Shown here: one piece after another, positions 1 through 58,805 of the stretch | Position numbering within the stretch: position 1 is the stretch's first letter | How the letters are laid out: every line of letters starts with the position of its first letter | Source: Ostreococcus lucimarinus | Taxonomy: Eukaryota | NCBI GenBank assembly: GCA_000092065.1 | Contig: CP000585.1 | DNA length: 64,000 nt | Direction: 5' to 3' (one strand) | Position numbers and translations under genes: made by a program | Notes under the pieces: generated by a model | What the model was told of the DNA's origin: nothing | Seen by the model: only the letters and a program-made list of their open reading frames with translations | The model's database searches: none

Positions 1-3000
1 AGCCCAAGCTCGACACTAAACCGACGAGGTATCGATCGCTTATGGTGGCGTATAAAACCCCGTAATCTGAAGGCGGTAGCGTCGAGTCAATTCCACAGAA
101 ATCCGGCGCAGCGGTTGGGAAAGAGGGCGACGTCGGAGTCACTTCCCACAAATTCGCCGTCGGCGTCGATCCTAGCGTCATGTTTAAGCCGATGTACGCC
201 GACGTGTTGAAATCCAAGATCTCGACCATGGTCTCAGGTGTGAGATGAAAGCCGCGCGGTATCACGTTTGCGAACTGGATACTCCCTTGACCGTTGGTGA
301 TGACGCCGGCGAGCGCGGCGCAATGCGCGTTGGTGAGCGTCGCCACCAAGTCTTGCGAAACCGTCTTCGCCTTCAGCGGGCCGAGTCTAGTGAACTCCGT
401 CGTGATAGTCATCTTGGCCGTGCACGTGGATGCTGCTGCTGCTGTGTTGAGCGACTGTGCGAGAGCTAGTTTCGAACTTTGCGGCAAAATCCAAGCGCTT
501 TGAGAATACTTTGGAAACCGCACGCAGTCGGAGTCAATGCTGCGAAAGGAAAGACCTCTGAGAAGTTCTGACTTCATTGCCTCTTGCGAGATCGAAGACA
601 TCCCGTAACCGGTCGCGAACCCAGAGTATATCCTGTGACGCTCCGTCTTTTCATCCGCGTAGAAGTCTAATTGCACCTGCATCGTCGCAGCTTCTATTCT
701 GTTGCTCGTCAACGCCGGATTGAATGTGCTAAAGATGAAAATCGGCCCGGTGAGCAACAGCATGATGATGGCGATGATGCCGCCGCCGAGTAGAATCTTA
801 AGGGGCCAAGGCACAGGTTTTGCTCCGCTGTAATACTGGCGTCTGTTCCGTCTCCACGAGATGAGCATGTCCGTTTTGTGCAACAGGTAGTAAAGCGTCT
901 CGTACCGGAACCACATGACGTAATCTATGCTCGTGTCGCACACGACCCAGTCCAAAAGAGTTCGTATTTCGAACAAGAATGGCAACGTGTTGATGAGGTT
1001 GTACACGAATCGTCCTACAGGGGTATTCCCGAAACGCATGAGGACGATTTTGAACTGATACCCCTCCCTAAAACCTTCTCGAAGTTGCAACGCGCTGACG
1101 ATGAATTGGAAGAGCATCAAAACCGTAAACGCCTTGAGATGCGAGTTATGTCGCGGAGACACGAATGAACGCGTGTCCAGTAACGGAAGGAAAATGAAAA
1201 CCAGTGAGACGTATAGCACGACTTGTGCAAAGTGCAAGTAGAACTTCAACTTGATGTTCTGCGAAAGATACACCAAGCGCATCACAATTATCCACATCAC
1301 AGACGACACGATGGAAATCGTCAGTCCCGTTCCAAAGGACTCCGTCGAACTCAGCGCCGTGCCAGACTCGAAGACTAAGTTACGGTAACCCGTGACAAAC
1401 CAACAAGTAATGATTAATTGTAAGAAAATCTCCAAGGAGTAAAGGTCGACGCCCGGTTTGCCGACATTCCTTTTCGGCATTTTGGCGGAATTGCTAAGAC
1501 AAATCTGCGTCACCAATTCTCTGAAACGAGTTTGTGCAACGTGTATACCCCTAGTGAAGAGGCCGAACGTCCTCATATACGCCCTTCTCCGTTCACGTCG
1601 TCTCAAAGCACGAGTGCGTTCCTTACTAGTGCGTCCTTCTAGATGGTGCGTCTCGACTTGCCGTGTTTTTCCTGTCGCGACATCCTCAAGCGGCGGCGAC
1701 GTCAACGCCGCCAAGTCGATGTCGTCCTTGAATTCACCAGCATGGTACGTCTGATAATCTTCTCGAGGAGCTAGCGGGATGGCATCGCGCCTCGTGCATT
1801 GACCCAAACTATGCATGTGTGACATGTGTAAGACGAGCGTGACAATGAGAAATATGTCTGTCCAGACTTCATCGCGAACCAAATTTCGAGCGCGTGGGAC
1901 GGTGAGAAGAGTCGCACTCAACGTGCTAAACTCACTGTCCGCGGCCGGGTCATACAACGTCATCGTCGGACAATACGGTTGCGCACTGATGTACCACTTG
2001 TTGCGGTTGTCAAACTTTGCGTTCGCATCAAGTTCCATGCAGAACGCCTTGCTTCGGAGCAAAATCCGTGCGTAAAAGCACGCGACGGAATACCAGAAGA
2101 TGAAACGCCACATCTCCGGCAGTGGCTGCGGATTCCACATCGCCGCGAACGCCAAAATGAAGATCACGAGACATGCACTCATCAAATCGACGTGATCGAT
2201 GAAGTTACACACCAAAGCGATGTACAACAAGCGCTCGCTTTGAGAATAGATGATCTTTCCGAAGCCGGTAATGATATTCGCGCCGCCCCAGTCTCCTTTT
2301 CGAGTCCACTCGCTTTCGCCGCCTTTGTCGTTGGGCAACGGATATAGCGCGGGATCGAGCAAGTAAGCGGCAGAATTTCTCGCAGCGTGGACAACCTTGG
2401 CAACGCCATTTATCAACTTGTCTTTGCCCGATAAAACCTCTTCACCTTCCTCGTCGTCTTGCGGCATTGGCATGGTGACGACGTCGGATGGCTCTGACGG
2501 AGGTCCGTAACCAATCGACCTTGAACACGATTGCACGGTGAAGGAGTAGCTCATACCCGGAGTTAGACCAGAGATCACATGTGATGACGGTGCCCGTGAC
2601 TCTGCATCAACGTCCACTTTCACTGGGTTCACGTGATGTGGAAATATCGTTGTCCGCGGCGAACGCTCGCGCTTTATAGTGAATTGTTCGATGTCGTCAG
2701 TCGAGCCGCGCATCTTCCACTTCACCTCGACGGTGGTTGAGTTTTGTGCCCGCACAGTGACATGTTCAGGAACATATTTTTCCGCCGCCGTCTCTTCGTC
2801 GATTGTGTGCCTGAACTTTTGGAAATGAGTCCATTCAGACGCTTGCAAGGCGCTCGCTCGAACTTTGTCGGTGATCATTTTGTACTCTTCATCAATCTCC
2901 TGTTGAATCTTTGCTCGCCATCCAAGAATGTATTTGCGATACAAGATGGAACGGCGAGCACGCTTGTCCATTGCGTTTTTTTCTAATCGCAAGACTTCAC

Positions 3001-6000
3001 GGACGTATCGTTCGTTGGAGAAAAGTTGCGCTTGAACCGAGCAAAGAATGAATAGCGCGACGTCGACGCCTATGGAACCAGAGCTGTAACCCAACACAGA
3101 CACACAGTCTGCAGCGAGCATGGTAGCGTCACACGCCGAGCCGAGTTTACGGACACCGAACAAGGAGTTAATTGTTTCGCACATGCGCGTACCCACAACA
3201 CATGACCCAAGTCGCGCAGTGCGACCATTGAGAAGTATCGGCTTGATATAGGGGATCTGATACACAAGTTTCGCCGCGAGGACGGTGAAGACGTACACGG
3301 GCAAGAGACGGAACAACTCGCCATTCCACCATTTGTGGGCGCGACTCGGGAATATTCGAGTGTTTATTCGCAACTCATTGAAGCGCATCGAAAACAAAAT
3401 CGTGATTCCCGCATAGCACAGTGATATGAAATCACTATCGTGCTGCGCCACGGCAGCCGTCGTAGTGAGAATAACGATGACCAAAAGTAGATACTTGTAG
3501 AAGAACTTCAAGAAGAATTGACCCATGATCTCTTCAATTCTCCGTCGCACAGTCGTTCGTCGCTCGTGAATCGCCATCGAAGCGATTTGGCTGAAAGTGT
3601 AGTGCTCTTGAATGACTTGCAATTCTTCCTTAATTGAAACTTGCCTCGATAGATTTCGATTCGTCCAATTGGCGCGCTTCATTTCTTCCCTTTGAAGGTC
3701 TGCGTCCACGCTCGGAACGTACTCTTGGAGTTGCACGTTTACCGCGTCCCATCGCTTTATTTTGTCATCGTAGGAAAGTTCTGATGTTTCATCGAGCTTG
3801 CGCCGTTCTGCGAGGCGAGTATTGACTTTGTTTGCGAGAGATGTAAACGCCTCTGACTGCACCCACTCGCTACCCATCTTTTGGCCTTTCGCTTTCACGT
3901 AGCCGCGCATCCATGCCGTGCGGACGTCGTCCCGAACCATGTTTTTGTGTCCTTTTCGCACGTAATGTCCCACGAGTAACATCACGAGGATGTCAGATAT
4001 TATTTCGTACTCATGTACAAAAACTGGCCTCGAGTTGCAATCCAAATACGCTGACGGCGCAGGCGCTGCGGCAGCGGAGGACGGACAGTCCCAAATATCG
4101 AGCCAAAACCGTTTTTCAGGGCACGTCTCACAGTAATTTGTATTGAGCCAACTCGGCGGCAGGCGCAAGGCGGCCATGATGTGTATCGCCAAGATGGCGC
4201 CGATGATGAGAAGTATTGCGTAACCTTGAGACTGAAATCTCACAACTCCTGCGCGATTGTTGAAGGCCAAAAAGTATCCAAGGATGATGATATATATAGA
4301 ACTCGTCACATCTGATTTTAAGAAGGCATTGATCAGTAACACGGCCATCGCGAGCAGATACTTCAAGCTCGCGAGCTGCTCAATCGCGGAATCTAGTGTC
4401 TCGAAGGTATTCTTGACATCCCACTTCACGAATCGATAAACCATCCTTATGACGATTGGGCGCCATCCGTACAGTGCGATTTTACTTTTGCTATGCTTCA
4501 AACTCCCGGCATTCACCTGTTTGACGAGATTGGCGAATATATCTTCTTCTGCGCGAATCGGCGTCTGCTGCACCATGGGGGACATGCCTTCATCCGTCGT
4601 GACGATTTTCTTCTTGCCCACTGGCGTTTCGATGTTTTTGTTTTTCATGCGCTCGGCGACGATGAGCAATTTCAACTTCTTTGCCACATCGCATCCCTGA
4701 ACTTCACCGCGAAGCTTTGCCCAATAACTCGCTCGCGGAACTGCGGTCGCCGTCGTCGATTTTGCTTTCCGTTGCACCTTGACATTGTGTCGTCTCTGCA
4801 AGAATCCGTGTAAAACGGCGAAAATGATCACCGCATAATGCGCTCCAAAAATGTACCAGTTTGTCGTAAAAGTCAAGCACGCTTGCGTCGGGAACTGGTT
4901 TGATGATGACGCCGCAACACTAGCATCCTGACAAAATGTCTTGGTGGAATCGAGAACGTAAGGCCACGCACAACAACTCGTGGTGGTTTGCAAGTCATCG
5001 CCGAGACGTGGATCGTAAAGTGAAATCAAGCCAAGCCAACTCCCCCAATTTTCGTTTACTAACGTGTTCAGCGATCCCGATTGGAAGATCGTCAAGAGCG
5101 TGAGCTGTTTGAACACGATGGAAATCGTCGCCAGTAGAGCCAAATAAAATCCGTAGTCATTCACCTCAGTGTGAATTGATACTGGCGCGGCATGATGATA
5201 GTCTGATTCCCTCAGGTGACGCCTGAACCACCCAGACGATCCAGATGGACTGCGCCTTGTCTGAATCGGCGGCGGCGTTATGTCGGCGGCCGTGATAACA
5301 TTGCTTCGTATCCGACGCATTCGGTTCAAGAATCGCCATGAATCCGTCAAAATTCTCATCGACGTTCCAATGACGCTAAAAGTTCCATACCGAAGCGGTA
5401 CGGGAGCCTTGCCGCGGATTGTTGGCACAGCGAGTTCTATGCATGCAAACATTATAACCACGACGTAGAGCATACTCACGACTTCGACTCGAAACGCCAC
5501 ACAGATTGTTGCCACGAGTAAAAGCAGCTCCATGGATACGCCGTGTAACGCGGATTCGAATTCATCACCTACCGAGTCTTTCACGTGCTTTAATACCGTA
5601 GCGGTAGCGTGATACAGAAAGATAGACGGACGCATGGTGTTGATGTCCTCGACCTTCGTCGACTCGGATTCCTTACTCATATCGAGACGACGAATCGGTG
5701 TTCCCTCAGGCAGCCCATCTTCGTACCAGTCACTGTCGTAATCTTCACTATCGCGCTGCAAACGCTCGTTAAGCCAGTAATACAACATCACGCACATGAC
5801 CAGTGTAAGGTAACGCGGCCACATGTACTTCCAAGAAAGGAGCGCCGGCGTCTGCAGTAAACCAAAGTCGAGCGGGGTGAGCTGTCGACTCAAACTACTC
5901 GGCCACGCGTCCATGAGACTACCGGCGACCTCTGGTATGTTATAGACGTACAAAAGCGAGATGTACACGTACTGAAATGCGATATAATACCAAAGCGTAT

Positions 6001-7081
6001 TTCGCAAACGCACCAGCCACTTATCTTGGAACTTCTTGGCGTCAACATCGGCGCCTCTCGTACCACTGAGGTTTCTCGCTGACGCCAGCATTCGCAAAAT
6101 GGTCACCAAAACTGTGACTATGTCCACAACTTGAATCATACTCATGGGCAATCCTCCAACGGTTGCTAAACCAGTGAACGTGATTGCGGCGGCTAAGATT
6201 GGAGCGTAGAGCAAAGGTCGATACCCTCCCACGCGGACTCTGAATCCCATCAGCTCTTGAAACTTGAATGAACTATCTATATCGCCGTGTGACACAGCCA
6301 AGGCGAAGCATGCGTTGGCCAACAGAGCGAAAATGAACCCAACAGTTTGCGCCGGTTTCATGCAACAAAGCCGTCCATTCCTACCCAAGGTCCAAAAGCC
6401 AAAGATGTTTGCGACTTTGGACGTTTCTAATTCCTGCGACGTCGCCCCGAGCGAAGTAAACACATACGACCCGAATATGATCAATCCCGTCAGGAATTGC
6501 ATTTTACCCGTGGTTGAAATTGCGTGCTCAAGTCGCGTCAAACGTGACGTGCGTGGATCACCGCGCCCGCCGACGAAACGCGTGTGCACCGCGACGAAGA
6601 GGAGAAACTGCAACACTCCGTTTGCCGAGTATCCCACGACGCCGCAACAAATGAAACCGAGCAGACGCCACCATTTCTGTATCGTATTCCGCAAATCTTC
6701 CTCTGTCAGCCCGACGACGAACATCAAACCTCGTCGCAAGTACTTCGCAATCGCTGTGGTTCTTCTCGACCCGCCAGCCTCCAAATGAGCCAACTCTCGT
6801 CTCAATTCGCCTCGCGCCCACAGCGACGTCAAAGCCACGAACGCATCCGGAATGAGCGAACGCGTGCCGACCGTCGCTTCATCGAACTTTTGCAACCCGA
6901 ACACTTCCAGCCATTTCGTTGGGACTCGTTCCGCCCCGATCGCGGCGTACGACGTTTGAAAAACGACCTGCACGAACAAAAATCCTCCGGCGACGAACGT
7001 CGTAAACGTCACCGCCTTTGTCGACCGTAACACCGCCCTCGCCACCGGTCGCGTCGACGCGCACAGCGCGAGGTAACACAT
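1..7081 (-). CDS. Piezo-type mechanosensitive ion channel homolog. The C-terminus is truncated by the left window edge. The gene appears intronless and is about 2360 codons long in the window.
   Basis: The minus-strand frame (codon high coordinate = 1 mod 3) is continuously open. It starts at ATG 7081-7079, just after an in-frame TAG at 7102-7100, and runs down to position 2 with no stop. It was hand-translated in full over 2-601 and spot-checked near 982, 2578, 3002-3061, 5821-6000 and 7021-7129. It encodes many hydrophobic helices. The Piezo anchor hallmark PFLFEIRTLLDW = PF(X2)E(X6)W lies at 947-982. It is followed by WVVCDTSIDY...KPVPWPLKILLGGGIIAIIMLLLTGPIFIF (outer-helix-like) and then a cap-like domain that runs off the window. 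The track lists no competing ORF of 60 aa or more here in either the minus phase or the plus phase antisense to it over most of 500-7100. The gene itself is absent from the supplied track. Confidence 0.8.
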   Translation of the reverse strand, partial: MCYLALCASTRPVARAVLRSTKAVTFTTFVAGGFLFVQVVFQTSYAAIGAERVPTKWLEVFGLQKFDEATVGTRSLIPDAFVALTSLWARGELRRELAHLEAGGSRRTTAIAKYLRRGLMFVVGLTEEDLRNTIQKWWRLLGFICCGVVGYSANGVLQFLLFVAVHTRFVGGRGDPRTSRLTRLEHAISTTGKMQFLTGLIIFGSYVFTSLGATSQELETSKVANIFGFWTLGRNGRLCCMKPAQTVGFIFALLANACFALAVSHGDIDSSFKFQELMGFRVRVGGYRPLLYAPILAAAITFTGLATVGGLPMSMIQVVDIVTVLVTILRMLASARNLSGTRGADVDAKKFQDKWLVRLRNTLWYYIAFQYVYISLLYVYNIPEVAGSLMDAWPSSLSRQLTPLDFGLLQTPALLSWKYMWPRYLTLVMCVMLYYWLNERLQRDSEDYDSDWYEDGLPEGTPIRRLDMSKESESTKVEDINTMRPSIFLYHATATVLKHVKDSVGDEFESALHGVSMELLLLVATICVAFRVEVVSMLYVVVIMFACIELAVPTIRGKAPVPLRYGTFSVIGTSMRILTDSWRFLNRMRRIRSNVITAADITPPPIQTRRSPSGSSGWFRRHLRESDYHHAAPVSIHTEVNDYGFYLALLATISIVFKQLTLLTIFQSGSLNTLVNENWGSWLGLISLYDPRLGDDLQTTTSCCAWPYVLDSTKTFCQDASVAASSSNQFPTQACLTFTTNWYIFGAHYAVIIFAVLHGFLQRRHNVKVQRKAKSTTATAVPRASYWAKLRGEVQGCDVAKKLKLLIVAERMKNKNIETPVGKKKIVTTDEGMSPMVQQTPIRAEEDIFANLVKQVNAGSLKHSKSKIALYGWRPIVIRMVYRFVKWDVKNTFETLDSAIEQLASLKYLLAMAVLLINAFLKSDVTSSIYIIILGYFLAFNNRAGVVRFQSQGYAILLIIGAILAIHIMAALRLPPSWLNTNYCETCPEKRFWLDIWDCPSSAAAAPAPSAYLDCNSRPVFVHEYEIISDILVMLLVGHYVRKGHKNMVRDDVRTAWMRGYVKAKGQKMGSEWVQSEAFTSLANKVNTRLAERRKLDETSELSYDDKIKRWDAVNVQLQEYVPSVDADLQREEMKRANWTNRNLSRQVSIKEELQVIQEHYTFSQIASMAIHERRTTVRRRIEEIMGQFFLKFFYKYLLLVIVILTTTAAVAQHDSDFISLCYAGITILFSMRFNELRINTRIFPSRAHKWWNGELFRLLPVYVFTVLAAKLVYQIPYIKPILLNGRTARLGSCVVGTRMCETINSLFGVRKLGSACDATMLAADCVSVLGYSSGSIGVDVALFILCSVQAQLFSNERYVREVLRLEKNAMDKRARRSILYRKYILGWRAKIQQEIDEEYKMITDKVRASALQASEWTHFQKFRHTIDEETAAEKYVPEHVTVRAQNSTTVEVKWKMRGSTDDIEQFTIKRERSPRTTIFPHHVNPVKVDVDAESRAPSSHVISGLTPGMSYSFTVQSCSRSIGYGPPSEPSDVVTMPMPQDDEEGEEVLSGKDKLINGVAKVVHAARNSAAYLLDPALYPLPNDKGGESEWTRKGDWGGANIITGFGKIIYSQSERLLYIALVCNFIDHVDLMSACLVIFILAFAAMWNPQPLPEMWRFIFWYSVACFYARILLRSKAFCMELDANAKFDNRNKWYISAQPYCPTMTLYDPAADSEFSTLSATLLTVPRARNLVRDEVWTDIFLIVTLVLHMSHMHSLGQCTRRDAIPLAPREDYQTYHAGEFKDDIDLAALTSPPLEDVATGKTRQVETHHLEGRTSKERTRALRRRERRRAYMRTFGLFTRGIHVAQTRFRELVTQICLSNSAKMPKRNVGKPGVDLYSLEIFLQLIITCWFVTGYRNLVFESGTALSSTESFGTGLTISIVSSVMWIIVMRLVYLSQNIKLKFYLHFAQVVLYVSLVFIFLPLLDTRSFVSPRHNSHLKAFTVLMLFQFIVSALQLREGFREGYQFKIVLMRFGNTPVGRFVYNLINTLPFLFEIRTLLDWVVCDTSIDYVMWFRYETLYYLLHKTDMLISWRRNRRQYYSGAKPVPWPLKILLGGGIIAIIMLLLTGPIFIFSTFNPALTSNRIEAATMQVQLDFYADEKTERHRIYSGFATGYGMSSISQEAMKSELLRGLSFRSIDSDCVRFPKYSQSAWILPQSSKLALAQSLNTAAAASTCTAKMTITTEFTRLGPLKAKTVSQDLVATLTNAHCAALAGVITNGQGSIQFANVIPRGFHLTPETMVEILDFNTSAYIGLNMTLGSTPTANLWEVTPTSPSFPTAAPDFCGIDSTLPPSDYGVLYATISDRYLVGLVSSLG
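2520..2810 (-). other. Fibronectin type III-like module embedded in the Piezo homolog
   Basis: The translation is ...PEHVTVRAQNSTTVEVKWKMRGSTDDIEQFTIKRERSPRTTIFPHHVNPVKVDVDAESRAPSSHVISGLTPGMSYSFTVQSCSRSIGYGPPSEPSDVV. This is the classic FN3 pattern of W, Y-x-V, LxPGxxYxFxV and a GxGxxS tail. The segment VISGLTPGMSYSFTVQSCS was verified at 2521-2580. Confidence 0.5.
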
Positions 7082-7147
7082 AATGTAACAACACGACACC
7101 TACATCGCGGCATCGCCATTCATCAGTCTTTCACTCTTCGCTCGCGA

Positions 7148-7204
7148 ATTGTTCGCGTTCGCGTTCGCGTTCGCGTTCGCGTTCGCGTTCGCGTTCGCGT
7201 TCAT
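7148..7204. repeat. (GTTCGC)n hexanucleotide microsatellite, about 9 copies
   Basis: Read directly as gttcgcgttcgcgttcgc.... It lies in the putative Piezo 5' flank. Its translation gives the FAFAFAFA artefact ORF 7149..7622. Confidence 0.9.
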
Positions 7205-7578
7205 ACCAAATCACACCGCGCCGTCGACGCCGCGATCAGCGCCGCGCCGTGCACCGCCCTCGACATCGCCATCAGCGCGTCCGCGTCGGACAGCGACACC
7301 GATGCGTCGTCATCGGCTCCATCGTCGTCGGCTCCATCGTCGAAACTCAAACTTTTATTCGTCGTCGTCGCTCGATCCGCGCGCGACGACGACGCGCGCA
7401 TCGACGACGCGACGCGCGCCAACATGGTACTTTCGCGCTCGCCCCGCGCGCCGCGCTCGCGCGCGCGCGTGTGCGGCGCTTTCGAAAGATGACGAGTTAG
7501 TTGGTTGGGTGAAAAAGGAATTTCAAACTCTGGAGCGACAAAACGCGAATACAGTTACAACAACAAAGATGATAAATA

Positions 7579-8748
7579 TTAGCGACTGGACGACGCGCGC
7601 GCGGCGGCGAGCGCGGAGGTGAACCATGAATGGGTGTCGATGCGCACGATGCCGGCGTCGGCGACGTTGGAGGCGTCGAGGGTGACGAAACTGCCCTCGG
7701 CGGCGGCGGCGACTTTGCGAGCGACTTCGTCGGCGGAACCGTGGACGAGACGCGCGCGAGCGGTCGGTGGCGCTGATTTTACGCCCTCGACGCCGTCAGC
7801 GGAGGGAAGTTGGACGATATCGTCGACGATCGCGTCGCGGTAGACGCCGATGACGTGTGGTTGGGGAGAGAAGCCGCTCGGAAAGGAGGCGTCGATGCCT
7901 CCGCCTCGAGAATTGACGTGCGCGATGTGCACGCGCTCGGCGAATTTGACAGACACGTCGCCGCCGCCTGAATCGATACCGATCATTTCTTCACCCGCAC
8001 CCTCTAAACTTCCGATGGAAACGGCGCCACCACTCGTGCGCACGAGACCGAATTCACCCACGCGTAGACTCTTCGCCGTCGCGTCGCCGCCGCCGGTGTT
8101 GACGTTCACTTTATCCCCAAAAACCGCCTCAGCGTGAAACTTCCCTTCTGGTTCGGTGTCTACGTACACCACCGACCCAACAAACTTACCGCGCATCGTC
8201 ACGTCCCCCCCCGCGGTGCGCACTCTGGAATCCGCGCTCACCGATCCTCGCGCGCGCACCGCGCCTCCGCTCGTATCCAGGTCCATCGTCGACCCTTTGA
8301 TCGTCCCCAATTCCACGTCCCCGCCGTTCGTGCGCACTTTCACCCCCGCCTCGACGACCGATTCCACCGAAATCGTCGAATTCTCCCCCCTCAACCGCGC
8401 GTCGACGCCGCAAAATCTCGGCGGTATCCTCGCCCGCACCGCCGCGCGCGTCCCGTCCCTCGCCCCCGTCCTCGCGTCCCGCACCAGCACCACCTCCCCT
8501 CGCCCGCCGTCGCCTCGCGCGCGCGTGATCTCGAACTCGGCGTCGTGCGCGTCGTCCGCGATCTCGATCTCGATGCGCTCCGTCGCCGACGCGTGCGGCG
8601 CGACGACGACGTCCACGCGCGCGCGTTCGCTGTCGAACGCCACCGTCGCGCCCGGCGCGACGCCGTCGAACGTCGTCGTCGCGTGCGTCGCCGCGCGCGC
8701 GAACGGCGCCGACCGCAGCGTCGCGCGCGCGCGCGCGAGTCGACGCAT
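7579..8748 (-). CDS. Hypothetical protein with reiterated G-G-D/GGxV beta-strand repeats (DUF4097 / putative-adhesin-like beta-helix). The N-terminus is Arg/Ala-rich and presequence-like.
   Basis: 389-aa ORF. It has periodic motifs TNGGDVELG, TSGGAVRARG, TAGGDVTMRG, NTGGGDATAK, TSGGAVSIG, DSGGGDVSVK and NSRGGGIDASF. Three long overlapping ORFs (8134..8925 +, 8156..8977 +, 8186..9193 -) are low-complexity R/A/S-rich and are judged GC artefacts. Confidence 0.45.
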   Translation of the reverse strand: MRRLARARATLRSAPFARAATHATTTFDGVAPGATVAFDSERARVDVVVAPHASATERIEIEIADDAHDAEFEITRARGDGGRGEVVLVRDARTGARDGTRAAVRARIPPRFCGVDARLRGENSTISVESVVEAGVKVRTNGGDVELGTIKGSTMDLDTSGGAVRARGSVSADSRVRTAGGDVTMRGKFVGSVVYVDTEPEGKFHAEAVFGDKVNVNTGGGDATAKSLRVGEFGLVRTSGGAVSIGSLEGAGEEMIGIDSGGGDVSVKFAERVHIAHVNSRGGGIDASFPSGFSPQPHVIGVYRDAIVDDIVQLPSADGVEGVKSAPPTARARLVHGSADEVARKVAAAAEGSFVTLDASNVADAGIVRIDTHSWFTSALAAARASSSR

Positions 8749-8834: not shown

Positions 8835-9956
8835 ATGGACGCGAACGCGAACGCGACGCGCGAGAGGGACGCGCCGGACGCCGTCGCGGACGCGGCGTGC
8901 GACGTCGAGCGACGCGCGCACGTGATCAGTGGACGCGTGGCGCAGTTGGATTCAAACATGAAGTCGCTGAAACTTGAACTCTCGGCGCTGAACGATGCGC
9001 TGATGGACATGGAGGGGAAAGCGAAGGAGGGGGACGGGGCGTACGATACGATGGAGACGCGCGCGGCGCTGTACGGCGCGAGACGGGTGATACAAGGCGC
9101 GGGACCGGGTGGAGACTTGTACGGGTACATGAAGCCGAAGACGACGCACTCGCGGTTTCTGCGACTGTTCGTCGGGGGAGCGGTGGAGATCAATTCCGTG
9201 AGACAAGAGGCGAGATTGCGGTTGAAGGAGGAGTATTATCACTTTCGCGATCAAAATACGGTGGTTTACGTGTTGGCGCCGTTGGCGTTGTTGCTCGGAT
9301 ACAGCGAACGCGTGCACCCGAAGGCGCTGGACGCGACGCAGATTGGATACTTGAGGGCGTTTTATCCGATCGCACTGCAGCTGTATTGGGTGTGGCTTTT
9401 GTACTTTTACACCGCACTCGCGCTGCGGGAGAACATTTTGCGCGTGAACGGGTCGACGATTCGTCCGTGGTGGATTAAGCACCACTACTATTCGGCGGCG
9501 ATGGCGCTGTGCGTGTTGACGATGGATTTAGATTCGCCCGCGTGCGAGGCGTTCACTTTGAGATTCTTACTCTTCACCACGCTTCAGGGAGTGGTGATGT
9601 TAGTCCAAAATAGATACCAGCGTTTCCGCTTGTACACGCGCGTGGCGATGGGGAAAGCGTCGCCCATGGACGTGGCGTCGATTGAACTCTCGGGCGGACA
9701 GCTCAAGCTTTTGTACCCACTCCTGTTCGGTTTGCAGGCGATGCAACTGTACGTCGGCGCGAGCGTGCTGTTCGTGGTCATGACGACGTATCGCATAGAA
9801 AGCCACATCATGCGAGAGTGGCAAGCGTCCGTGGCGGGCGTCTTATTCGTTCTCATGGCGGTTGGCAACTTCACCGCCACGCTCAACACGCTGCGATCCA
9901 AGCGCTCATTCGCGCACAAGAAGCGGACTCGCAGCCAAAGTTTTCATCAGGATTAA
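8835..9956 (+). CDS. TMEM120 / TMPIT (TACAN) family membrane protein
   Basis: 373 aa. The N-terminus is coiled-coil-like (LKLELSALNDALMDMEGKAKE) and is followed by multi-pass hydrophobic segments. It carries the conserved WWIKHHYYS motif and FLLFTTLQGVVMLVQNRYQR, as in TMEM120 proteins. Confidence 0.7.
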   Translation: MDANANATRERDAPDAVADAACDVERRAHVISGRVAQLDSNMKSLKLELSALNDALMDMEGKAKEGDGAYDTMETRAALYGARRVIQGAGPGGDLYGYMKPKTTHSRFLRLFVGGAVEINSVRQEARLRLKEEYYHFRDQNTVVYVLAPLALLLGYSERVHPKALDATQIGYLRAFYPIALQLYWVWLLYFYTALALRENILRVNGSTIRPWWIKHHYYSAAMALCVLTMDLDSPACEAFTLRFLLFTTLQGVVMLVQNRYQRFRLYTRVAMGKASPMDVASIELSGGQLKLLYPLLFGLQAMQLYVGASVLFVVMTTYRIESHIMREWQASVAGVLFVLMAVGNFTATLNTLRSKRSFAHKKRTRSQSFHQD

Positions 9957-25368: not shown

Positions 25369-26355
25369 GTGGCGAAAGCCGCGCCGGGCGAACCGAAGAA
25401 GGTGTTCGGGTTGACCTTGCCGGAGGGCGAAGGGATCTCTTTCGCGATTCTCGCCGCCGGTTCCCTCGGTTCCGCGCTCGGTTTCGCCGCGCTTCAAGAG
25501 GGCGTGTTCCGCATTCCGGGCTTCAAGTTCTCGGCGTGGATGACGGTTTTGACGACGTTTACGTACTTTTTGTGCGGCGCGCTCGAGATGAAGCTCACCA
25601 AAGACTCCCGTAAGGGTTCTTGGAAGAACTACGGTATTCTTTCCGTGTACACCTACGGTGGTATGGCTTTGACCAACTACGCGTTGTCCTACTTGAACTA
25701 CGCCACCCGCATCGTGTTCAAGTCCGCGAAGATCATCCCCGTCATGGCCTTCTCCGTCTTGATCGTCGGCAAGAAGTACAACTGGAAGGAGTGGTTGTCG
25801 GCGGCGATTCTCGTCGCGGGCATCGTCCTCTTCACCCTCGGTGACGTCGCGTCCTCCCCGGCGTTCGCGCCGATCGGTGTTGCGCTCATCGCCGCCGCCT
25901 TGTGCGTCGATGCGATCTGCGCTAACTTCGAGGAGAAGAACTTCTTCCGTTGCGAAACCCCGTCGACGACGCAGGAAGTGCTCTGCTACGCGTCCTTGAT
26001 CGGTACCGCGTACGGTCTCGTCCCGCTCATCGCGTCCGGTGGCCTCGCTCCGGCGCTCGCTTTCTCTCAAGCGAACCCGCAAGTGGTGCCGATGATCATG
26101 GCCTTCTCCGTCATGGGCTACTCTTCCGTGTCTTTCATCCTCTCCCTCATCAAGTACTTCGGTGCCACCGAGGCTGAAATCGTGAAGTCGCTCCGCAAGG
26201 TGCTCTCCATCGTGATCTCCTTCGCCCTCTTCCCGAAGGAACTCAACTGGAAGTACATCGCTGGTTTCGCCGCCGTCGTCGTCTCCACGGTCTACACCTT
26301 CTACCTCAAGCAACAAAAGAACGCCGCCAAGGCTGCCGCCAAGGCTGCGGAATAA
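25369..26355 (+). CDS. UAA/SLC35B-family nucleotide-sugar or PAPS transporter (UDP-galactose transporter-related)
   Basis: 328 aa. GC3 is high but codon usage is that of a highly expressed gene. There are about 10 TM segments. Motifs FKSAKIIPVM and VLIVGKKYNWKEW are typical of SLC35B/UAA. The antisense ORF 24769..26316 is open only because of GC3 bias. Confidence 0.75.
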   Translation: MAKAAPGEPKKVFGLTLPEGEGISFAILAAGSLGSALGFAALQEGVFRIPGFKFSAWMTVLTTFTYFLCGALEMKLTKDSRKGSWKNYGILSVYTYGGMALTNYALSYLNYATRIVFKSAKIIPVMAFSVLIVGKKYNWKEWLSAAILVAGIVLFTLGDVASSPAFAPIGVALIAAALCVDAICANFEEKNFFRCETPSTTQEVLCYASLIGTAYGLVPLIASGGLAPALAFSQANPQVVPMIMAFSVMGYSSVSFILSLIKYFGATEAEIVKSLRKVLSIVISFALFPKELNWKYIAGFAAVVVSTVYTFYLKQQKNAAKAAAKAAE

Positions 26356-26767
26356 TTCCGCCCGTCTTTCTCGCCGAGAAGGAGTGCGTTTTTTTTTCGA
26401 AGGGACAATTGAAATTTATCGACCACTTCGTTTAGCACGAAGTTTATTAGGGCAAACGATGGATTGGGTCGTCCGCTTTCTCGTCCGATCGAGCAAGCGC
26501 TTTCGAGTCATCGTTCGTCAATCGATTTAATTATGATGCATCACAAACACAGTTTTCGGTTCGTTCGCGTTCGCTTTTTCGTCGAGGTTTCTTGAAGTAA
26601 ATATTGATTGCAGAATTCTATGTGTGCAATTAATCAACGCAACGCGGCGCATCATTACGATGCCCGCGCCGTCACTTCTCGCTAGGGAAGTGCGAGCCAC
26701 AAACGCTCGGCGGAAGATCGAACGTCCTCGACGCGTATGTTTAGGCCAAAACTTGCGCCGGCTTGAC

Positions 26768-28357
26768 TTAGGCGACGGCGTCGAAGTCAACCGGGTCGGA
26801 CTTCCAGATGAGGAAGACGAACACGGAAACCAATTGAAGGGCAGCGATCGGGAAGAACAAGGAGTACGCCCAGTTGCCGCCGGTCATGGAAAGGAAAAGA
26901 CCGGTGAAGAAGGTGGAAAGAGTCGACGCGATGGCCGCCGCCGTGTTGGTGACGCCCAACATGATGGACGCGTACTTCGGCGAAAGGTCTTGGTGACCGC
27001 AGAACAAACCAGTGCGGATGAACGCGGCGAAGCCGAAGGTGACGGACAGGAGACCGACAACCATGCCGATGGTTTGGTTCGTCACCGCGGCCACCGGGGT
27101 GGCGTTCACGATCAAGCCAATCATCGTGAGCGTCACGGCGCCGACGCCAAAGCAGAGCGTCTGCGAGCCCTTGCGAATTTGCGTTCGCGTGAGCTTCTTC
27201 TTCGCCTCGAGTTCACCGGCGAGTGGGGCGATGAGCGCGGTCACGATGACGGTGGACAAGTAAGGAAGAATGGAGAGGAAAGACGACTTGGACAAAGTCA
27301 CGCCCATGGCGCTCGCCAAGAAGGACGGCAACCACGCGAGCAAGCCGTAGGAAAAGTAGTTCCACGTAAAGTGCGCGACGGTGAGCGCCCAAAACTGCGG
27401 GTTGCGCACAAAGGCGGCCCACGGGATGGAGAGACCCTTCTTAGCGCCGGTGGTTTCGACTTCCTTCATGTCCGTGGAGGAATCGCGCATGTAGGAGATG
27501 AACCACCACGCGCCCCAGAAGAAGCCGAGGGCGCCGAACAAGTAAAAGACGGCGGCCCAGCCGCCGAGGTGGAAGATGATCGGCGGCGCGATGAGCAAAC
27601 CCAACAACGAGCCGACGTCGAGACCGCCGAAGGCGGAGGTCACGGCCTTCGATCGCTGGCTCGGCGGAACGCCCTTCGCCAACACGCCGGTCGCCGCGGA
27701 CGGCGCGACGCCTTCGCCGAGACCGACCAAGAATCTCGACGCGAGCAGCGCCGGCATGCCGAGCGCCGCGCACCACGGCGCGATGAGCGTACCGAACGAC
27801 CAGAGCATGACGCCCCAGAACAAGACGGCTTTACCGCCGTACTTACTCGCCAACCACCCACCCGGGATCTGCGTGAACGAATAACCCCAGAAGAACGCGG
27901 ACGCGACCAAGCCCTTTTGCGTCGCCGTCCACCCGAACGACTCCGCCATCGGCACGATGGCCACCGACATGTTCACCTTGTCCAAGTTACACAGCACGAA
28001 CGCGATGAACAGCGCGAACACCATCCCCCATCGCTTCTTTTGCCCTCCCTCGGTCATATCGAACACCTCTTCCTCCGGCGGATCGTTCGGGTTGATCTCG
28101 ATCGCCCCGCCCCCCGCGCGTCTCGCCGCGCGCGCCGCGCGCTTTTGCCCTAAGCCGATCGCCGATCGCGTCTCTCGCGCGCTTTTCGCGCCCACCGTCG
28201 ACGCGCGCGAGGCGCGCGCCCCCTCACATCGCGCGATCGTCACCGTCTCCGCCCGCATCGCCCGCGCGCGCGTCCCTCGTCGTCGCCTCGTCGTCGTCGT
28301 CGTCGCCCGCGCCGTCGCGTTCGCCATCGCCGTCGCGTTCGCCATCGCCGACATCAT
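26768..28357 (-). CDS. MFS anion:cation symporter, PHT4/SLC17-like Na/phosphate transporter, plastid-targeted
   Basis: 529 aa. The N-terminus carries an MANATA tandem repeat and an Arg-rich presequence. It has 12 TM segments. MFS motifs include GGWLASKYGGK and SRFLVGLGEGVAPSA. Confidence 0.8.
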   Translation of the reverse strand: MMSAMANATAMANATARATTTTTRRRRGTRARAMRAETVTIARCEGARASRASTVGAKSARETRSAIGLGQKRAARAARRAGGGAIEINPNDPPEEEVFDMTEGGQKKRWGMVFALFIAFVLCNLDKVNMSVAIVPMAESFGWTATQKGLVASAFFWGYSFTQIPGGWLASKYGGKAVLFWGVMLWSFGTLIAPWCAALGMPALLASRFLVGLGEGVAPSAATGVLAKGVPPSQRSKAVTSAFGGLDVGSLLGLLIAPPIIFHLGGWAAVFYLFGALGFFWGAWWFISYMRDSSTDMKEVETTGAKKGLSIPWAAFVRNPQFWALTVAHFTWNYFSYGLLAWLPSFLASAMGVTLSKSSFLSILPYLSTVIVTALIAPLAGELEAKKKLTRTQIRKGSQTLCFGVGAVTLTMIGLIVNATPVAAVTNQTIGMVVGLLSVTFGFAAFIRTGLFCGHQDLSPKYASIMLGVTNTAAAIASTLSTFFTGLFLSMTGGNWAYSLFFPIAALQLVSVFVFLIWKSDPVDFDAVA

Positions 28358-28730
28358 CGTCGCGCGCGTCGCGCGTTTTGACGCCCGCGGTCCGGTGCGC
28401 CGTCGCGCGTTCGAACGCCGTTCGATCGACGGTCTCGCGAGTCGGGTCGATCGCGATTCGCACGTCGCGCGCCGTCGTCTCGCGTCGCGTCGCGTCGATC
28501 GCGCGATCGCGCGATCCGCCGCCGGCGCGCCGAGCCGTTCGAACGCGCGTTTCAGTACACCTAAACCCTATACTTTTTTATGTATTTCGCGCGCGCGTCG
28601 TGATCTTTGATGCGGTCGAACAGGCGTCGAAGGCGACGATGCGAGACGACGCGAGACGACGCGGCGTCGCGGTCGGTCGCGCGCGGCGATCGGCGTTCGC
28701 GACGTCACTCGACGGGCGACGACGACGACG

Positions 28731-29201
28731 ATGATGATGGCGATGACGACGACGACGACGACGTCGATGAACGCGGGACGACGACGAGACGCGAGGACGT
28801 CGTTCGGACGCGCGACGACGACGCGGGCGACGCGGGCGACGCGCGCGACGACGACGACGACGACGGCGTTCCTGAACTTTGGCGGGAACAGGGCCGCCGC
28901 GGGGGGGGCGGTGGACGCGACGCCGTACGTGTGCGTCGACTGCGGGTACGTGTACAGGGGGGGGGACTTTAAGAAGTTGCCGAACTCGTACCGGTGCCCG
29001 ACGTGCAACGTCGGGAAGAATCGATTCAAGGCGCAGGGAGGGTCGTCGATGCTGGCGCAAAAGAAGGCGAACAAGGCGGCGTTTCGGGCGAGACGCGAGG
29101 CGGCGAGCAAGGGAGGGAAGGCGACGAGCGGACGCGAGGCGTTGAAGCAAAAGATGATGGACGCGCAGGCGGAGAAGGATAAAAAGCGCGGGTGGTTTTA
29201 A
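28731..29201 (+). CDS. Rubredoxin-like domain protein with an organellar presequence and a Lys-rich C-terminal tail
   Basis: YVCVDCGYVY...LPNSYRCPTCNVGKNRF matches the CxxCG...CPxCG rubredoxin knuckles. The N-terminus is Thr/Arg-rich. Confidence 0.55.
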   Translation: MMMAMTTTTTTSMNAGRRRDARTSFGRATTTRATRATRATTTTTTAFLNFGGNRAAAGGAVDATPYVCVDCGYVYRGGDFKKLPNSYRCPTCNVGKNRFKAQGGSSMLAQKKANKAAFRARREAASKGGKATSGREALKQKMMDAQAEKDKKRGWF

Positions 29202-36445: not shown

Positions 36446-38341
36446 TCACGACGCGCTCGAGCGCTCCTTCGACGCGGCGTCGACGCGGTCGTCGCGCAAG
36501 ATGGACTTGAACGCGATGCCGTTGATGCGGCAAAATAATATAAAGCTCGCCAAACCGTAGTACGCGAATGTGATCCACCAGATGTAGGAATACTTGGCGA
36601 GGCCGAAGACGTGCGTGTTGAGATACGACATCGCCGCGCCGAAACCGAGCAACCCGATGGCGGTGAGACCGGCGAGGAAATTCAGCGCTCGAGCGGCGAC
36701 CATGACGCCGTAGAGCGATTTGGAGATGATGTTTGCGGAAACCGCGGCGGACATGGGGAGAACGACGGAATGGAGCTGCGCGATGACGGCGGCGTCGGTG
36801 GTGAAGACGCCGGCGCAGAGGTAACAGCACGCGGCGAAACCGGAGGAACAGGTGGCGGCGGTGAACAGACCGAACTGGAACAGGATCATCGCCATCTTAC
36901 GTGCGTTCGCCTTCGAGGGCGTGATTATGTGCTCGGGCATGAACGCTTGCCCGGCTTGCACCAAAGGATCGCCGCAGAGGACGGTGAAGGAGAAGAGCGT
37001 CGCCGCGATTCTGTGCGCCGCGGAGACAGTGACACCGAGCGAGTTTGCCTGGAGGATCTGCGTGGTATAAATAGCCAACAACGCTGCGACCAAAAACGTG
37101 ATCGGGCCGAAGAACGCCATAGTCGGCGCCATTTGCGCCTTGGTGGGAATCATCGCTCGAAGAAACGAACGCGAACCGTCGCCAAAATTTTGCCTCGGTG
37201 GAAACTTTAAGAGTCCGCGTCGATGAAGCAAGACCGTGATGGCGATCAAACCGGTGTATAATGACGCCGTCGTCGCCCACGCGGCGCCCGCGGCGCCGGT
37301 TTTAAACACCGCCACCATGAGATAATCACCCACGAAATTCACCACCGCCGCGAGCGCGACGCAGAGCAGCGGCCCCACGGTGTCTTTTCTCGCCACCAAA
37401 GTCGCGTACGCCGACGCCGTCAAGAACGCCGCGGGCATCGCCAAGCCACGAATGCGCGTGTATCCCGCCGCGATCGTTTTCACCTCTCCCGTGACGCTCA
37501 GTAAATCTAACAGCGCGTCCGTGCGAGCGAGCAACAGCGCGCCCACGGCGAGCGAGCTCGCGCCGGCGATGAACAGCGCGCCGTACACCTTCCCGTTCAG
37601 CTCATCTTCGTCCTCGCCGCTCGCCACGCCTCGACTCACGATGGACGTCAAACCAGCGGTGATGAACGCGAACAACGACACCGAATAATCCGTCAACGGC
37701 GTCGACACCCCCAACGCCGCCAGCGCCACCGCGCTCGCCTCCCCCGCGCACCGTCCCACGAACGCCGTGTCCGTCATCGTCAGCAGCGGCGATATCAAAT
37801 TCGACGCCAACAGAGGCGCGCAAAATCCCATCAGCGCTCGCAGCTCTCGTCTCGCGTTCAGCGTCCGTCCGTCCGTCCCCTCGTTCGCGCTCGCCGCTCG
37901 CGTCCGCTCGCGCGCGCGTCGCCCCGCCTCCTCGCGCGCGCGCGCGCGCGTCGCCCGTCCCGCGCCCGATCTCGTTCCCGTTTTCACCGTCGCCGCGATC
38001 GCGTCTCGCGTCGACGCGCGCGCGACGCGTCCGCGCCGTCGCGTCGTCGTCTCTCTCGTCGTCGTCGCCGTCCCCGTCGTCGTCGTCGTCCCCGTCGTCG
38101 CGCGCCGTCGTCCCCGCGCCGCGCGCGCGACGCCCGCGGTCGCCGCGGTCGCCGGCGTCGTCGTCGCCGCCGTCGTCGCCATCGCGTCGACCGACGCGCG
38201 TCCGACGACGACCGCGACCGGCCGCGCGCGGGTCGTTATGAAACCCGAGGGTTCGCGCGCGCCGCGTCGTCGGGAATGCAAAGCGTCATTTCGAGGCTGA
38301 GCGATTGAAGGCGGGCGAACGGAGGACGACGAGCGATTCAA
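36446..38341 (-). CDS. MATE family efflux transporter with a long N-terminal transit-peptide-like region
   Basis: 631 aa. Twelve TM segments begin after about residue 170. It has the MATE-like duplicated 6-TM architecture. The presequence is Thr/Ala/Arg-rich. The start could instead be MATTAATTTP at about 38182. Confidence 0.75.
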   Translation of the reverse strand: MNRSSSSVRPPSIAQPRNDALHSRRRGAREPSGFITTRARPVAVVVGRASVDAMATTAATTTPATAATAGVARAARGRRRATTGTTTTTGTATTTRETTTRRRGRVARASTRDAIAATVKTGTRSGAGRATRARAREEAGRRARERTRAASANEGTDGRTLNARRELRALMGFCAPLLASNLISPLLTMTDTAFVGRCAGEASAVALAALGVSTPLTDYSVSLFAFITAGLTSIVSRGVASGEDEDELNGKVYGALFIAGASSLAVGALLLARTDALLDLLSVTGEVKTIAAGYTRIRGLAMPAAFLTASAYATLVARKDTVGPLLCVALAAVVNFVGDYLMVAVFKTGAAGAAWATTASLYTGLIAITVLLHRRGLLKFPPRQNFGDGSRSFLRAMIPTKAQMAPTMAFFGPITFLVAALLAIYTTQILQANSLGVTVSAAHRIAATLFSFTVLCGDPLVQAGQAFMPEHIITPSKANARKMAMILFQFGLFTAATCSSGFAACCYLCAGVFTTDAAVIAQLHSVVLPMSAAVSANIISKSLYGVMVAARALNFLAGLTAIGLLGFGAAMSYLNTHVFGLAKYSYIWWITFAYYGLASFILFCRINGIAFKSILRDDRVDAASKERSSAS

Positions 38342-58637: not shown

Positions 58638-58729
58638 GGCTCGCGTAGGGCTCGCGTAGGCACTAGATACATCGTCGGATTGGCAAAGAATTTGTCGCTC
58701 GCGTAGGGCTCGCGTAGGGCTCGCGTAGG
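58601..58729. repeat. 60-bp unit tandemly duplicated with a 9-bp spacer (69-bp period) across the HSD stop codon. Each unit holds three ctcgcgtagg sub-repeats.
   Basis: catcgtcggattggcaaagaatttgtcgctcgcgtagggctcgcgtagggctcgcgtagg occurs at 58601-58660 and identically at 58670-58729. The HSD stop TAG is at 58635-58637 in copy 1. Confidence 0.9.
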
Positions 58730-58805
58730 AGATATAACTATGCATCACAAACACGAATATTTGCGCTAGCGGTCTCTCGATCGATTGTTTTCCATTCGTT
58801 GATAT

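What the first reader, a model, noticed from the sequence alone, without database searches (positions are those of the whole stretch)
1..7600. Sharp compositional boundary: the Piezo gene is ~50% GC against a ~68-70% GC background
GC drops from about 70% in every gene right of ~7.1 kb to roughly 48-55% across the whole Piezo ORF. Some stretches, for example 4257-4330, are AT-rich, and codon usage differs. In Mamiellophyceae, low-GC blocks mark the outlier chromosome regions. Alternatively, the low GC could reflect foreign or recent acquisition, or relaxed codon bias of a lowly expressed giant gene.
Basis: seen in the sequence. Interest (0 to 1): 0.5.

Follow-up and report, generated by a model that had tools for sequence, protein, structure and literature searches.

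The report
Low-GC Piezo gene, ordinary cause
The giant Piezo channel gene at the left end of this Ostreococcus lucimarinus window really is about 10 GC points poorer than its neighbours, but the dip covers only that gene, is inherited across related species, and follows from the protein's composition, the gene's length and weak codon bias, so it is ordinary.

Summary
Bases 1-7099 are 51.2% GC and the rest of the window is 60.5%, not 68-70%; only 4 of 37 other genes reach 68%. The Piezo ORF (2-7081, minus strand) has the lowest GC, the lowest GC3 (0.609) and the least biased codon usage (Nc 54) of 38 genes.

The dip is not a regional block. In conspecific contigs (99.5-99.7% identical), GC returns to 0.65-0.75 directly after the Piezo stop codon.

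The window is O. lucimarinus CCE9901, the last 64 kb of an 848-kb chromosome with the telomere at 63836-64000. It is colinear with O. tauri record CAID01000005.2. The same gene-sized dip occurs in the orthologue of five other Ostreococcus-type lineages. This argues against both an outlier-chromosome region and recent foreign acquisition.

The 0.096 GC deficit breaks down as follows:
- About half comes from amino-acid composition: a hydrophobic membrane protein, poor in Ala, Arg, Asp, Glu and Gly.
- About 15-30% comes from a 5'-to-3' GC3 decline that all genes here show and that a 7.4-kb gene samples most deeply.
- About 15-30% comes from weaker use of GC-ending codons, within the range of other genes in the window.

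Verdict: real, explained and of low interest.

The parts
2..7081 (-). Main ORF of the fn3-containing Piezo homologue: 2360 codons in the window, with the last 95 codons and the stop lying left of position 1. GC 0.513, GC1 0.503, GC2 0.426, GC3 0.609, Nc 54. This is the low-GC tract.
   Evidence: full length of 2455 aa taken from the conspecific contigs L001 and L007
6300..7500 (-). The 'boundary'. It is a gradual GC ramp from 0.50 to 0.65 across the 5' end of the Piezo transcription unit, the same 5' GC enrichment that all genes in the window show.
7207..7425 (-). Putative 5' exon of the Piezo gene (73 codons, GC 0.667, GC3 0.81). It reads in phase into the main ORF across the putative intron. 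This is an inference, not a demonstrated splice.
   Evidence: 75% amino-acid identity to the 93%-related lineage L002, with only in-frame indels; weak match in L004 (E 7.6e-4)
7100..7206 (-). Putative 107-nt phase-0 intron (GTATGA...TGTAG, GC 0.57). It holds a perfect (GAACGC)8.7 microsatellite at 7151-7202.
4257..4330 (-). It encodes the hydrophobic segment NAFLKSDVTSSIYIIILGYFLAFNN, so the AT-richness comes from Ile, Tyr, Phe, Asn and Lys codons.
2480..2770 (-). Fibronectin type III domain inside the Piezo protein (residues 1444-1540 of the translation that starts at 7099).
   Evidence: the same domain order occurs in Cymbomonas KAK3279946.1 and in P0009
7579..8748 (-). First gene to the right of the Piezo gene (389 aa, faint DUF4097 match), GC 0.679 and GC3 0.795. 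This is the GC-rich side of the contrast.

Best explanation
The low-GC tract is the coding sequence of one vertically inherited, about 7.4-kb Piezo gene on an ordinary, non-outlier chromosome of Ostreococcus lucimarinus. Three ordinary effects add up to its 0.096 GC deficit.

1. Protein composition, about half (0.049). This large multi-pass membrane protein is rich in Leu, Ile, Phe, Tyr and Trp and poor in Ala, Arg, Asp, Glu and Gly. That lowers GC at codon positions 1 and 2.

2. Position in the gene, about 0.015-0.03. In this genome GC3 falls with distance from gene 5' ends: 0.81 in the first 300 nt, about 0.67 beyond 1.2 kb, 0.72 in divergent promoters and 0.48 in convergent 3' spacers. The longest gene therefore spends most of its length at or below the plateau.

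3. A gene-specific remainder, about 0.015-0.03. GC-ending codons are preferred less strongly (Nc 54). I infer this reflects weak translational selection in a weakly expressed gene, drifting towards the AT-biased mutational equilibrium.

Shown here: the gene-limited extent of the dip, its conservation, the synteny and the decomposition. Inferred: low expression, and the cause of the 5'-to-3' gradient (promoter-centred recombination with GC-biased gene conversion, or selection).
For: Extent of the dip
- In L001 and L007 (99.5-99.7% identical to the window over 11.8-18.7 kb), GC is 0.50-0.53 through the gene and 0.65-0.76 from the stop codon onward.

Identity of the genome
- Window proteins are identical to O. 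lucimarinus CCE9901 XP_001418110.1 and XP_001417872.1, which lie on an 847,696-bp record.

Conservation
- The block KIX-ClpB-x-GT4-TMEM120-DUF4097-Piezo-VEFS-x-Ank-ADH-G6PD is kept in O. tauri CAID01000005.2 and four metagenomic lineages.
- Piezo GC is 0.49-0.53 against flanks of 0.56-0.66 in every one.

Decomposition
- Other genes pooled: GC 0.609.
- Piezo protein recoded with their codon usage: 0.560.
- Recoded with their usage beyond 900 nt from the ATG: 0.545.
- Observed: 0.513.

Position model
- A log-distance model trained on the other genes predicts Piezo GC3 of 0.64-0.65. The observed value is 0.609 and the other genes average 0.735.

Gradient in other genes
-; also the 1209-aa gene in L011, which runs from 0.47 at its 3' end to 0.68 at its 5' end.

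Effect size is ordinary
- The position-matched odds ratio for Piezo is 0.64. Other long genes range from 0.58 to 2.58.
- After regression on length, Piezo GC3 lies at z = -1.1.
- GC at positions 1 and 2 combined is only the 5th lowest of 38 genes.

Independent replicate
- An fn3-less Piezo paralogue in a roughly 50%-GC Mamiellales contig is also the lowest-GC gene of its neighbourhood: 0.461 against 0.475-0.60.

Literature
- Codon bias rises with expression in O. tauri, and preferred codons end in G or C (PMC3673656).
- Mutational equilibrium GC is 36.8% against 59% observed in O. tauri (PMC5455958).
Against: - No expression data were examined, so low expression is an inference.
- An Akashi-type test found no excess of GC-ending codons at conserved residues within Piezo (OR 0.89, p 0.21). 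This fits relaxed selection but gives no positive sign of selection on codons.
- The size of the length effect rests on extrapolating a log-distance model beyond the range of the other genes, none of which exceeds 3 kb.
- With the non-extrapolated estimate, the gene-specific remainder is about a third of the deficit.
- Only 37 comparison genes were available, from one subtelomeric 64-kb window, not the whole genome.
- My gene models are ORF-based and ignore introns.
Confidence: 0.8

Rival explanations
1. The window's left end is the edge of a Mamiellales outlier low-GC region: BOC1 on the big outlier chromosome, or the small outlier chromosome.
For: - The GC level of 51% is close to that published for outlier chromosomes: 53% for O. 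lucimarinus chromosome 18 (PMC3491373) and 54.3% for O. tauri (PMC5455958).
- The window alone cannot show what lies to the left of position 1.
Against: - Conspecific contigs show GC of 0.65-0.76 immediately beyond the Piezo stop.
- The block is colinear across six lineages and lies on O. tauri CAID01000005.2.
- The 7.08-kb ORF is uninterrupted, whereas BOC1 genes carry many 40-65 bp AT-rich introns and BOC1 lacks colinearity (PMC3491373).
- The record is 847,696 bp, not the roughly 150 kb of the small outlier chromosome.
Confidence: 0.01
2. The Piezo gene was acquired horizontally or recently and keeps the donor's lower GC and codon usage.
For: - It has the lowest GC, GC3 and codon bias of the 38 local genes.
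- Outside Ostreococcus, the nearest relatives are only 28-30% identical in the conserved C-terminal part.
Against: - Orthologues are present at the same syntenic site in six lineages with 53-64% protein identity. Each shows the same dip, so any transfer would predate the genus, and composition would have ameliorated since.
- The best outside hit is a chlorophyte, Cymbomonas tetramitiformis, sharing the unusual domain order fn3, THU, anchor, cap.
- No tRNA genes occur anywhere in the window, and no repeats flank the Piezo gene as a mobile element would leave.
- Half of the deficit is amino-acid composition.
Confidence: 0.02
3. The synonymous part of the dip is entirely a recombination effect. 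GC-biased gene conversion is centred on promoters, and the interior of a 7.4-kb gene lies too far from any promoter. Its silent sites therefore decay towards the AT-biased mutational equilibrium, and expression level or codon selection plays no role.
For: - GC3 falls with distance from gene starts in all genes.
- Divergent spacers are 0.718 GC and convergent spacers 0.477.
- Piezo GC rises again at its 3' end (0.56-0.58) where the convergent downstream gene is short. It stays at 0.47 in L011, where that gene is 3.6 kb.
- No Akashi signal was found.
- Published evidence exists for gBGC in Ostreococcus (PMC5498103, PMC5635611).
Against: - Distance to the nearest start fits no better than distance to the gene's own ATG (log-likelihood -9131 against -9129).
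- At equal distance, Piezo GC3 is still 0.03-0.09 below other genes in bins from 600 to 1600 nt.
- Codon bias is known to track expression in O. tauri (PMC3673656).
- No recombination map was examined.
Confidence: 0.25

Closest known systems
5'-to-3' GC3 decline and the negative length-to-codon-bias relation in eukaryotic genes (known in grasses and other taxa from my own knowledge; length against codon bias is cited in PMC3673656)
   Same: - GC3 is highest in the first few hundred nucleotides and declines along the gene.
- Longer genes have lower GC3 (Spearman rho -0.33, p 0.045 in the window).
- The longest gene is the least biased.
   Different: I found no paper describing such a gradient for Ostreococcus (0 papers for 'GC gradient' plus Ostreococcus). 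Here it is measured on only 38 genes.
Expression-linked codon usage bias in Ostreococcus tauri (Michely et al. 2013, PMC3673656)
   Same: Preferred codons end in G or C, and bias weakens in weakly expressed genes. Piezo has the weakest bias (Nc 54) and lower GC3 in 17 of 18 amino acids.
   Different: Expression of this gene was not measured here. The within-gene conservation test was negative.
Mamiellales outlier low-GC regions, BOC1 and SOC (PMC3491373, PMC5498103)
   Same: The GC level is similar, about 51-54%.
   Different: - Size: 7.4 kb and one gene, against hundreds of genes or a whole chromosome.
- Full colinearity between species.
- No small AT-rich introns.
- Normal-GC flanks on both sides.
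Piezo mechanosensitive channels, plant and green-lineage branch (O. lucimarinus XP_001418409.1 is used in the tree of PMC6395819)
   Same: THU9-anchor and cap domains, a length of about 2450 residues, and sequence matches to solved Piezo1 structures.
   Different: - It carries a fibronectin type III domain upstream of the last helical units, shared with Cymbomonas.
- A second, fn3-less Piezo family also exists in Mamiellales.
- I did not establish which of the two XP_001418409.1 is.

Membership tests
Big outlier chromosome low-GC region (BOC1) of Mamiellales | The low-GC tract spans a large sub-region with 193-633 genes (PMC3491373). | tested here: not met
   The dip covers one gene of 7.4 kb. 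Flanks are 0.60-0.66 GC on both sides.
Big outlier chromosome low-GC region (BOC1) of Mamiellales | [quoted passage not shown] | tested here: not met
   The ORF is uninterrupted for 7.08 kb. At most there is one putative 107-nt intron, with GC 0.57.
Big outlier chromosome low-GC region (BOC1) of Mamiellales | Little or no colinearity between species; located on chromosome 2 in Ostreococcus. | tested here: not met
   A 12-13-gene block is colinear in six lineages. The O. tauri copy lies on CAID01000005.2 at 759-786 kb.
Small outlier chromosome (SOC) | A whole small chromosome (about 150 kb in O. lucimarinus) at about 53% GC, made mostly of species-specific genes. | tested here: not met
   Window proteins lie on an 847,696-bp record. 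The rest of the window is 0.605 GC. The genes have orthologues in all lineages examined.
Horizontally acquired gene or island | Patchy distribution: absent from the syntenic site in close relatives. | tested here: not met
   The gene is present at the same site in all six lineages.
Horizontally acquired gene or island | The nearest relatives belong to a distant taxon. | tested here: inconclusive
   The best outside hit is the chlorophyte Cymbomonas, with the same fn3 architecture.
Piezo channel family | C-terminal THU9-anchor module and cap (CED) domain. | tested here: met
   PF24874 at 120 bits (cut-off 28) and PF12166 at 43 bits (cut-off 26.9). PDB Piezo1 matches at 1.2e-14.
Piezo channel family | A long N-terminal blade of repeated four-helix units, with a total size of about 2100-2800 residues. 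| tested here: inconclusive
   The protein is 2455 aa. THU_Piezo1 scores 25.7 bits, just under its 27.2 cut-off, in this copy, although precomputed Pfam hits list it for the orthologues. No structure was predicted.
Piezo channel family | A trimeric, mechanically gated cation channel. | not testable with these tools
   This needs electrophysiology or structure determination.
Weakly expressed, weakly codon-biased gene class in Ostreococcus | High effective number of codons and reduced use of GC-ending codons. | tested here: met
   Nc is 54.0, the highest of 30 genes with at least 200 codons. The position-matched odds ratio is 0.64.
Weakly expressed, weakly codon-biased gene class in Ostreococcus | Low measured mRNA or protein level. 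| not tested
   No expression data set was accessible through the tools.

The most novel reading that the evidence does not exclude
Ostreococcus genes may carry a strong promoter-centred GC gradient: 0.72 GC at divergent promoters, GC3 of 0.81 at gene starts falling to about 0.56-0.60 beyond 2.5 kb, and 0.48 GC at convergent 3' spacers. Promoter-associated recombination with GC-biased gene conversion would produce it. On this reading the Piezo gene, as the longest uninterrupted ORF, acts as a natural ruler showing the composition that silent sites reach when they are out of range of any promoter. The comparison with L011 would be the first hint: there GC stays low across the Piezo 3' end because the downstream gene is long. 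I found no description of such a gradient for this genus.
Probability: 0.3. Interest if true: 0.4.

Novelty: already known. Interest (0 to 1): 0.1.

Why it matters
It matters mainly as a caution. In compact GC-rich genomes such as Ostreococcus, a single long gene for a hydrophobic protein can look like a compositional island or a horizontal transfer. Before calling either, one should check amino-acid composition, position in the gene and conservation of the dip in orthologues. The case also documents a steep promoter-to-terminator GC polarity that could be used to study GC-biased gene conversion in picoalgae.

Tried and rejected
- A second homology search, using only the conserved C-terminal 585 residues, returned three fragments of the same species group and no named distant relatives. 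The word-index search is not useful at this divergence.
- The exhaustive HMMER search gave 751 relatives but no names. Only 10 could be labelled, so I built no real phylogeny.
- Akashi-type test for translational-accuracy selection inside Piezo, comparing conserved with variable residues stratified by amino acid: no signal (OR 0.89, p 0.21). There was also no correlation between conservation and GC3 in 100-codon bins (rho -0.09).
- I tried to separate 'distance from own ATG' from 'distance to nearest gene start' as the predictor of GC3. The two fit equally well.
- Literature search for a described GC gradient in Ostreococcus found nothing. An earlier attempt failed on query syntax.
- The tRNA scan of the window found none.
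- Membrane-protein status as the cause of low GC3 is rejected. The UAA, MFS and MatE transporters in the window have the highest GC3 values, 0.81-0.86. Hydrophobicity therefore lowers GC1 and GC2 but not GC3.
- Functional meaning of the TMEM120-Piezo proximity is not supported. The whole 27-kb block is equally conserved.
Full report
**1. What is in the sequence**

A windowed count gives 0.594 GC for the whole window, 0.512 for 1-7099 and 0.605 for 7100-64000. The low tract coincides with one open reading frame on the minus strand (2-7099 open, ATG at 7081) that runs off the left end.

Its product is a Piezo homologue:
- Pfam Piezo_THU9_anchor at 1.3e-34, Piezo_cap at 5.9e-11, and an internal fibronectin type III domain.
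- Matches to solved Piezo1 chains at 1.2e-14.

So the dip and the gene identity are real. The stated background is not. I called 38 genes with a codon-usage score. The 37 others average 0.616 GC (sd 0.052); only four reach 0.68 and fifteen are below 0.60.

The 'sharp' boundary is a ramp. GC rises from 0.50 at about 6.3 kb to 0.65 at about 7.3 kb, which is the 5' end of the Piezo gene.

The AT-rich stretch 4257-4330 (33.8% GC) encodes NAFLKSDVTSSIYIIILGYFLAFNN. Equally AT-rich 74-mers are as common outside the gene as inside it.

**2. Where the window comes from**

- Several window proteins are identical to Ostreococcus lucimarinus CCE9901 proteins (XP_001418110.1, XP_001417872.1) on an 847,696-bp record.
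- The right end of the window is a (TTTAGGG)n telomere at 63836-64000. The window is therefore the terminal 64 kb of that chromosome.
- The O. tauri orthologue (XP_022839111.1, named 'Fibronectin, type III') lies at 759-786 kb of the 835,544-bp record CAID01000005.2.
- The published outlier chromosomes are 2 and 18 in O. lucimarinus and 2 and 19 in O. tauri (PMC5635611, PMC5498103).

**3. The dip is one gene wide**

The window cannot show what lies to the left of position 1. Metagenomic contigs that are 99.5-99.7% identical to the window over 11.8-18.7 kb can. In them GC is 0.50-0.53 through the Piezo gene and 0.65-0.76 from the stop codon onward. The next genes, a VEFS-box gene and an unnamed one, have GC of 0.66-0.69 and GC3 of 0.76-0.81.

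**4. The dip is old and the gene is vertically inherited**

The block KIX-ClpB-x-GT4-TMEM120-DUF4097-Piezo-VEFS-x-Ank-ADH-G6PD is colinear in six lineages: the window's own species, a 93%-related lineage, O. tauri, and three further metagenomic lineages. Their Piezo proteins are 53-64% identical to the window's.

In every one the Piezo gene is the trough: 0.49-0.53 GC against 0.56-0.66 in the 10-kb flanks, with GC3 0.08-0.16 below the neighbours.

Outside this group, the best hit among 1.84 billion representatives is a protein of the prasinophyte Cymbomonas tetramitiformis (KAK3279946.1). It has the same unusual domain order: fn3, THU, anchor, cap.

No tRNA genes occur in the window, and no repeats flank the Piezo gene.

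These facts argue against both the outlier-region reading and recent acquisition. BOC1 is defined by hundreds of genes, many 40-65 bp AT-rich introns and loss of colinearity. SOC is a whole chromosome of about 150 kb made of species-specific genes (PMC3491373). None of these features is met here.

**5. Why the gene is GC-poor**

I split the 0.096 deficit as follows:

| Step | GC |
|---|---|
| Other genes pooled | 0.609 |
| Piezo protein recoded with their codon usage | 0.560 |
| Recoded with their usage more than 900 nt from the ATG | 0.545 |
| Observed | 0.513 |

*Amino-acid composition accounts for about half.*
- Piezo has less Ala (8.1 against 12.6%), Arg, Asp, Glu and Gly. It has more Leu, Ile, Phe, Tyr and Trp.
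- Its GC at positions 1 and 2 is only the fifth lowest of the 38 genes.

*The synonymous half has two parts.* The first is a positional effect shared by all genes.
- The first 300 nt have GC 0.68 and GC3 0.81. Beyond 900 nt the 300-nt bins are GC 0.55-0.58 and GC3 0.62-0.69.
- Divergent spacers are 0.718 GC and convergent spacers 0.477.
- A log-distance model trained on the other genes predicts a mean GC3 of 0.64-0.65 for a gene with Piezo's geometry. The observed value is 0.609 and the other genes average 0.735.
- Regression on length puts Piezo GC3 at z = -1.1, against z = -2.1 uncorrected.

The second part is a gene-specific remainder.
- Piezo has the least biased codon usage (Nc 54.0; the other genes range from 31.7 to 50.0).
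- Its position-matched odds ratio for GC-ending codons is 0.64 (p 3e-16). That lies inside the spread of other long genes, 0.58-2.58.
- Low-GC3 neighbours are a helicase, an RRM protein, Nup88 and an ERGIC protein. High-GC3 ones are EF-Tu and three transporters.
- The transporters show that hydrophobicity lowers GC1 and GC2 but not GC3.

Published work supplies the likely forces. Codon bias rises with expression in O. tauri, and preferred codons end in G or C (PMC3673656). The mutational equilibrium is 36.8% GC against 59% observed (PMC5455958). GC-biased gene conversion is supported by population data (PMC5498103).

From these I infer that the interior of a long, probably weakly expressed gene sits closer to the AT-biased equilibrium. 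That inference was not shown here.

**6. Checks on the mechanism**

- An Akashi-type test inside Piezo found no excess of GC-ending codons at residues invariant across five lineages (OR 0.89, p 0.21). I therefore detect no accuracy selection in this gene.
- 'Distance from own ATG' and 'distance to nearest gene start' fit GC3 equally well.
- One comparison favours a promoter-distance effect. Where the convergent downstream gene is short, GC rises to 0.56-0.58 at the Piezo 3' end. In L011, where that gene is 3.6 kb, GC stays at 0.47 across the junction and climbs to 0.68 only at the neighbour's 5' end.
- An independent replicate exists. A second, fn3-less Piezo family in a Mamiellales contig of about 50% GC is again the lowest-GC gene of its neighbourhood, at 0.461 against 0.475-0.60. 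A 1196-aa SMC gene nearby is also low.

**7. Verdict**

The compositional contrast is real but overstated, and it is gene-limited rather than regional. It is fully compatible with known determinants of within-genome GC variation.

- The outlier-chromosome and foreign-origin readings are not supported.
- The 'relaxed codon bias of a giant gene' reading is partly right but covers at most half of the effect.
- The O. lucimarinus Piezo is already in public databases and in a published Piezo tree (PMC6395819).

Interest is low. The only mildly novel thread is the steep promoter-to-terminator GC polarity. It would need genome-wide and recombination data to interpret.

Noticed in passing
window 63836-64000: About 23.7 perfect copies of the plant-type telomere repeat TTTAGGG run to the end of the window, with the G-rich strand reading 5'-to-3' outward. 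The window is therefore the terminal 64 kb of the chromosome, and the Piezo gene lies about 57-64 kb from the telomere.
   Followed up: partly
window 8835-9956 (+); L002-L005, L011: A TMEM120 (TACAN-family) homologue lies two genes from the Piezo gene. The arrangement is kept in all six Ostreococcus-type lineages. The whole 27-kb block is equally colinear, so this shows no specific functional linkage.
   Followed up: partly
window 7100-7425 (-): There may be an unannotated 5' exon of Piezo (7207-7425, 73 codons) joined to the main ORF through a 107-nt GT...AG phase-0 intron. The intron contains a perfect (GAACGC)8.7 microsatellite at 7151-7202. The exon is 75% identical in the 93%-related lineage, with only in-frame indels.
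   Followed up: partly
window 2480-2770 (-); P0199, P0009: The Piezo protein carries a fibronectin type III domain between its helical units. The chlorophyte Cymbomonas tetramitiformis has the same architecture. O. tauri annotators named the protein after this domain only.
   Followed up: partly
L009/L010 10001-17146: A second, fn3-less Piezo family (2381 aa, about 25% identical in the C-terminal part) exists in Mamiellales. One member of its 90% cluster is labelled Ostreococcus sp. RCC789, but the contig is only about 50% GC. Its species assignment is therefore unclear.
   Followed up: partly
whole window; L011 17400-21029: There is a strong GC polarity around genes. Divergent (5'-5') spacers are 0.718 GC, tandem spacers 0.602 and convergent (3'-3') spacers 0.477. 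GC3 falls from 0.81 to about 0.67 within 1.2 kb of gene starts. Many of the GC-rich 5' ends hold CG-rich triplet or hexamer repeats (for example 28717-28865, 38036-38184, 46630-46729).
   Followed up: partly
window 58600-58754 and 63121-63261: Two perfect 69-bp tandem duplications (two copies each, 100% identical) lie in the subtelomeric part of the window. The first contains a nested 11-bp triplication (GCTCGCGTAGG).
   Followed up: no
window 25540-28357 and 36446-38182: Three membrane transporters (UAA/SLC35, MFS, MatE) have the highest GC3 (0.81-0.86) and the strongest codon bias in the window, the opposite of the Piezo gene.
   Followed up: partly
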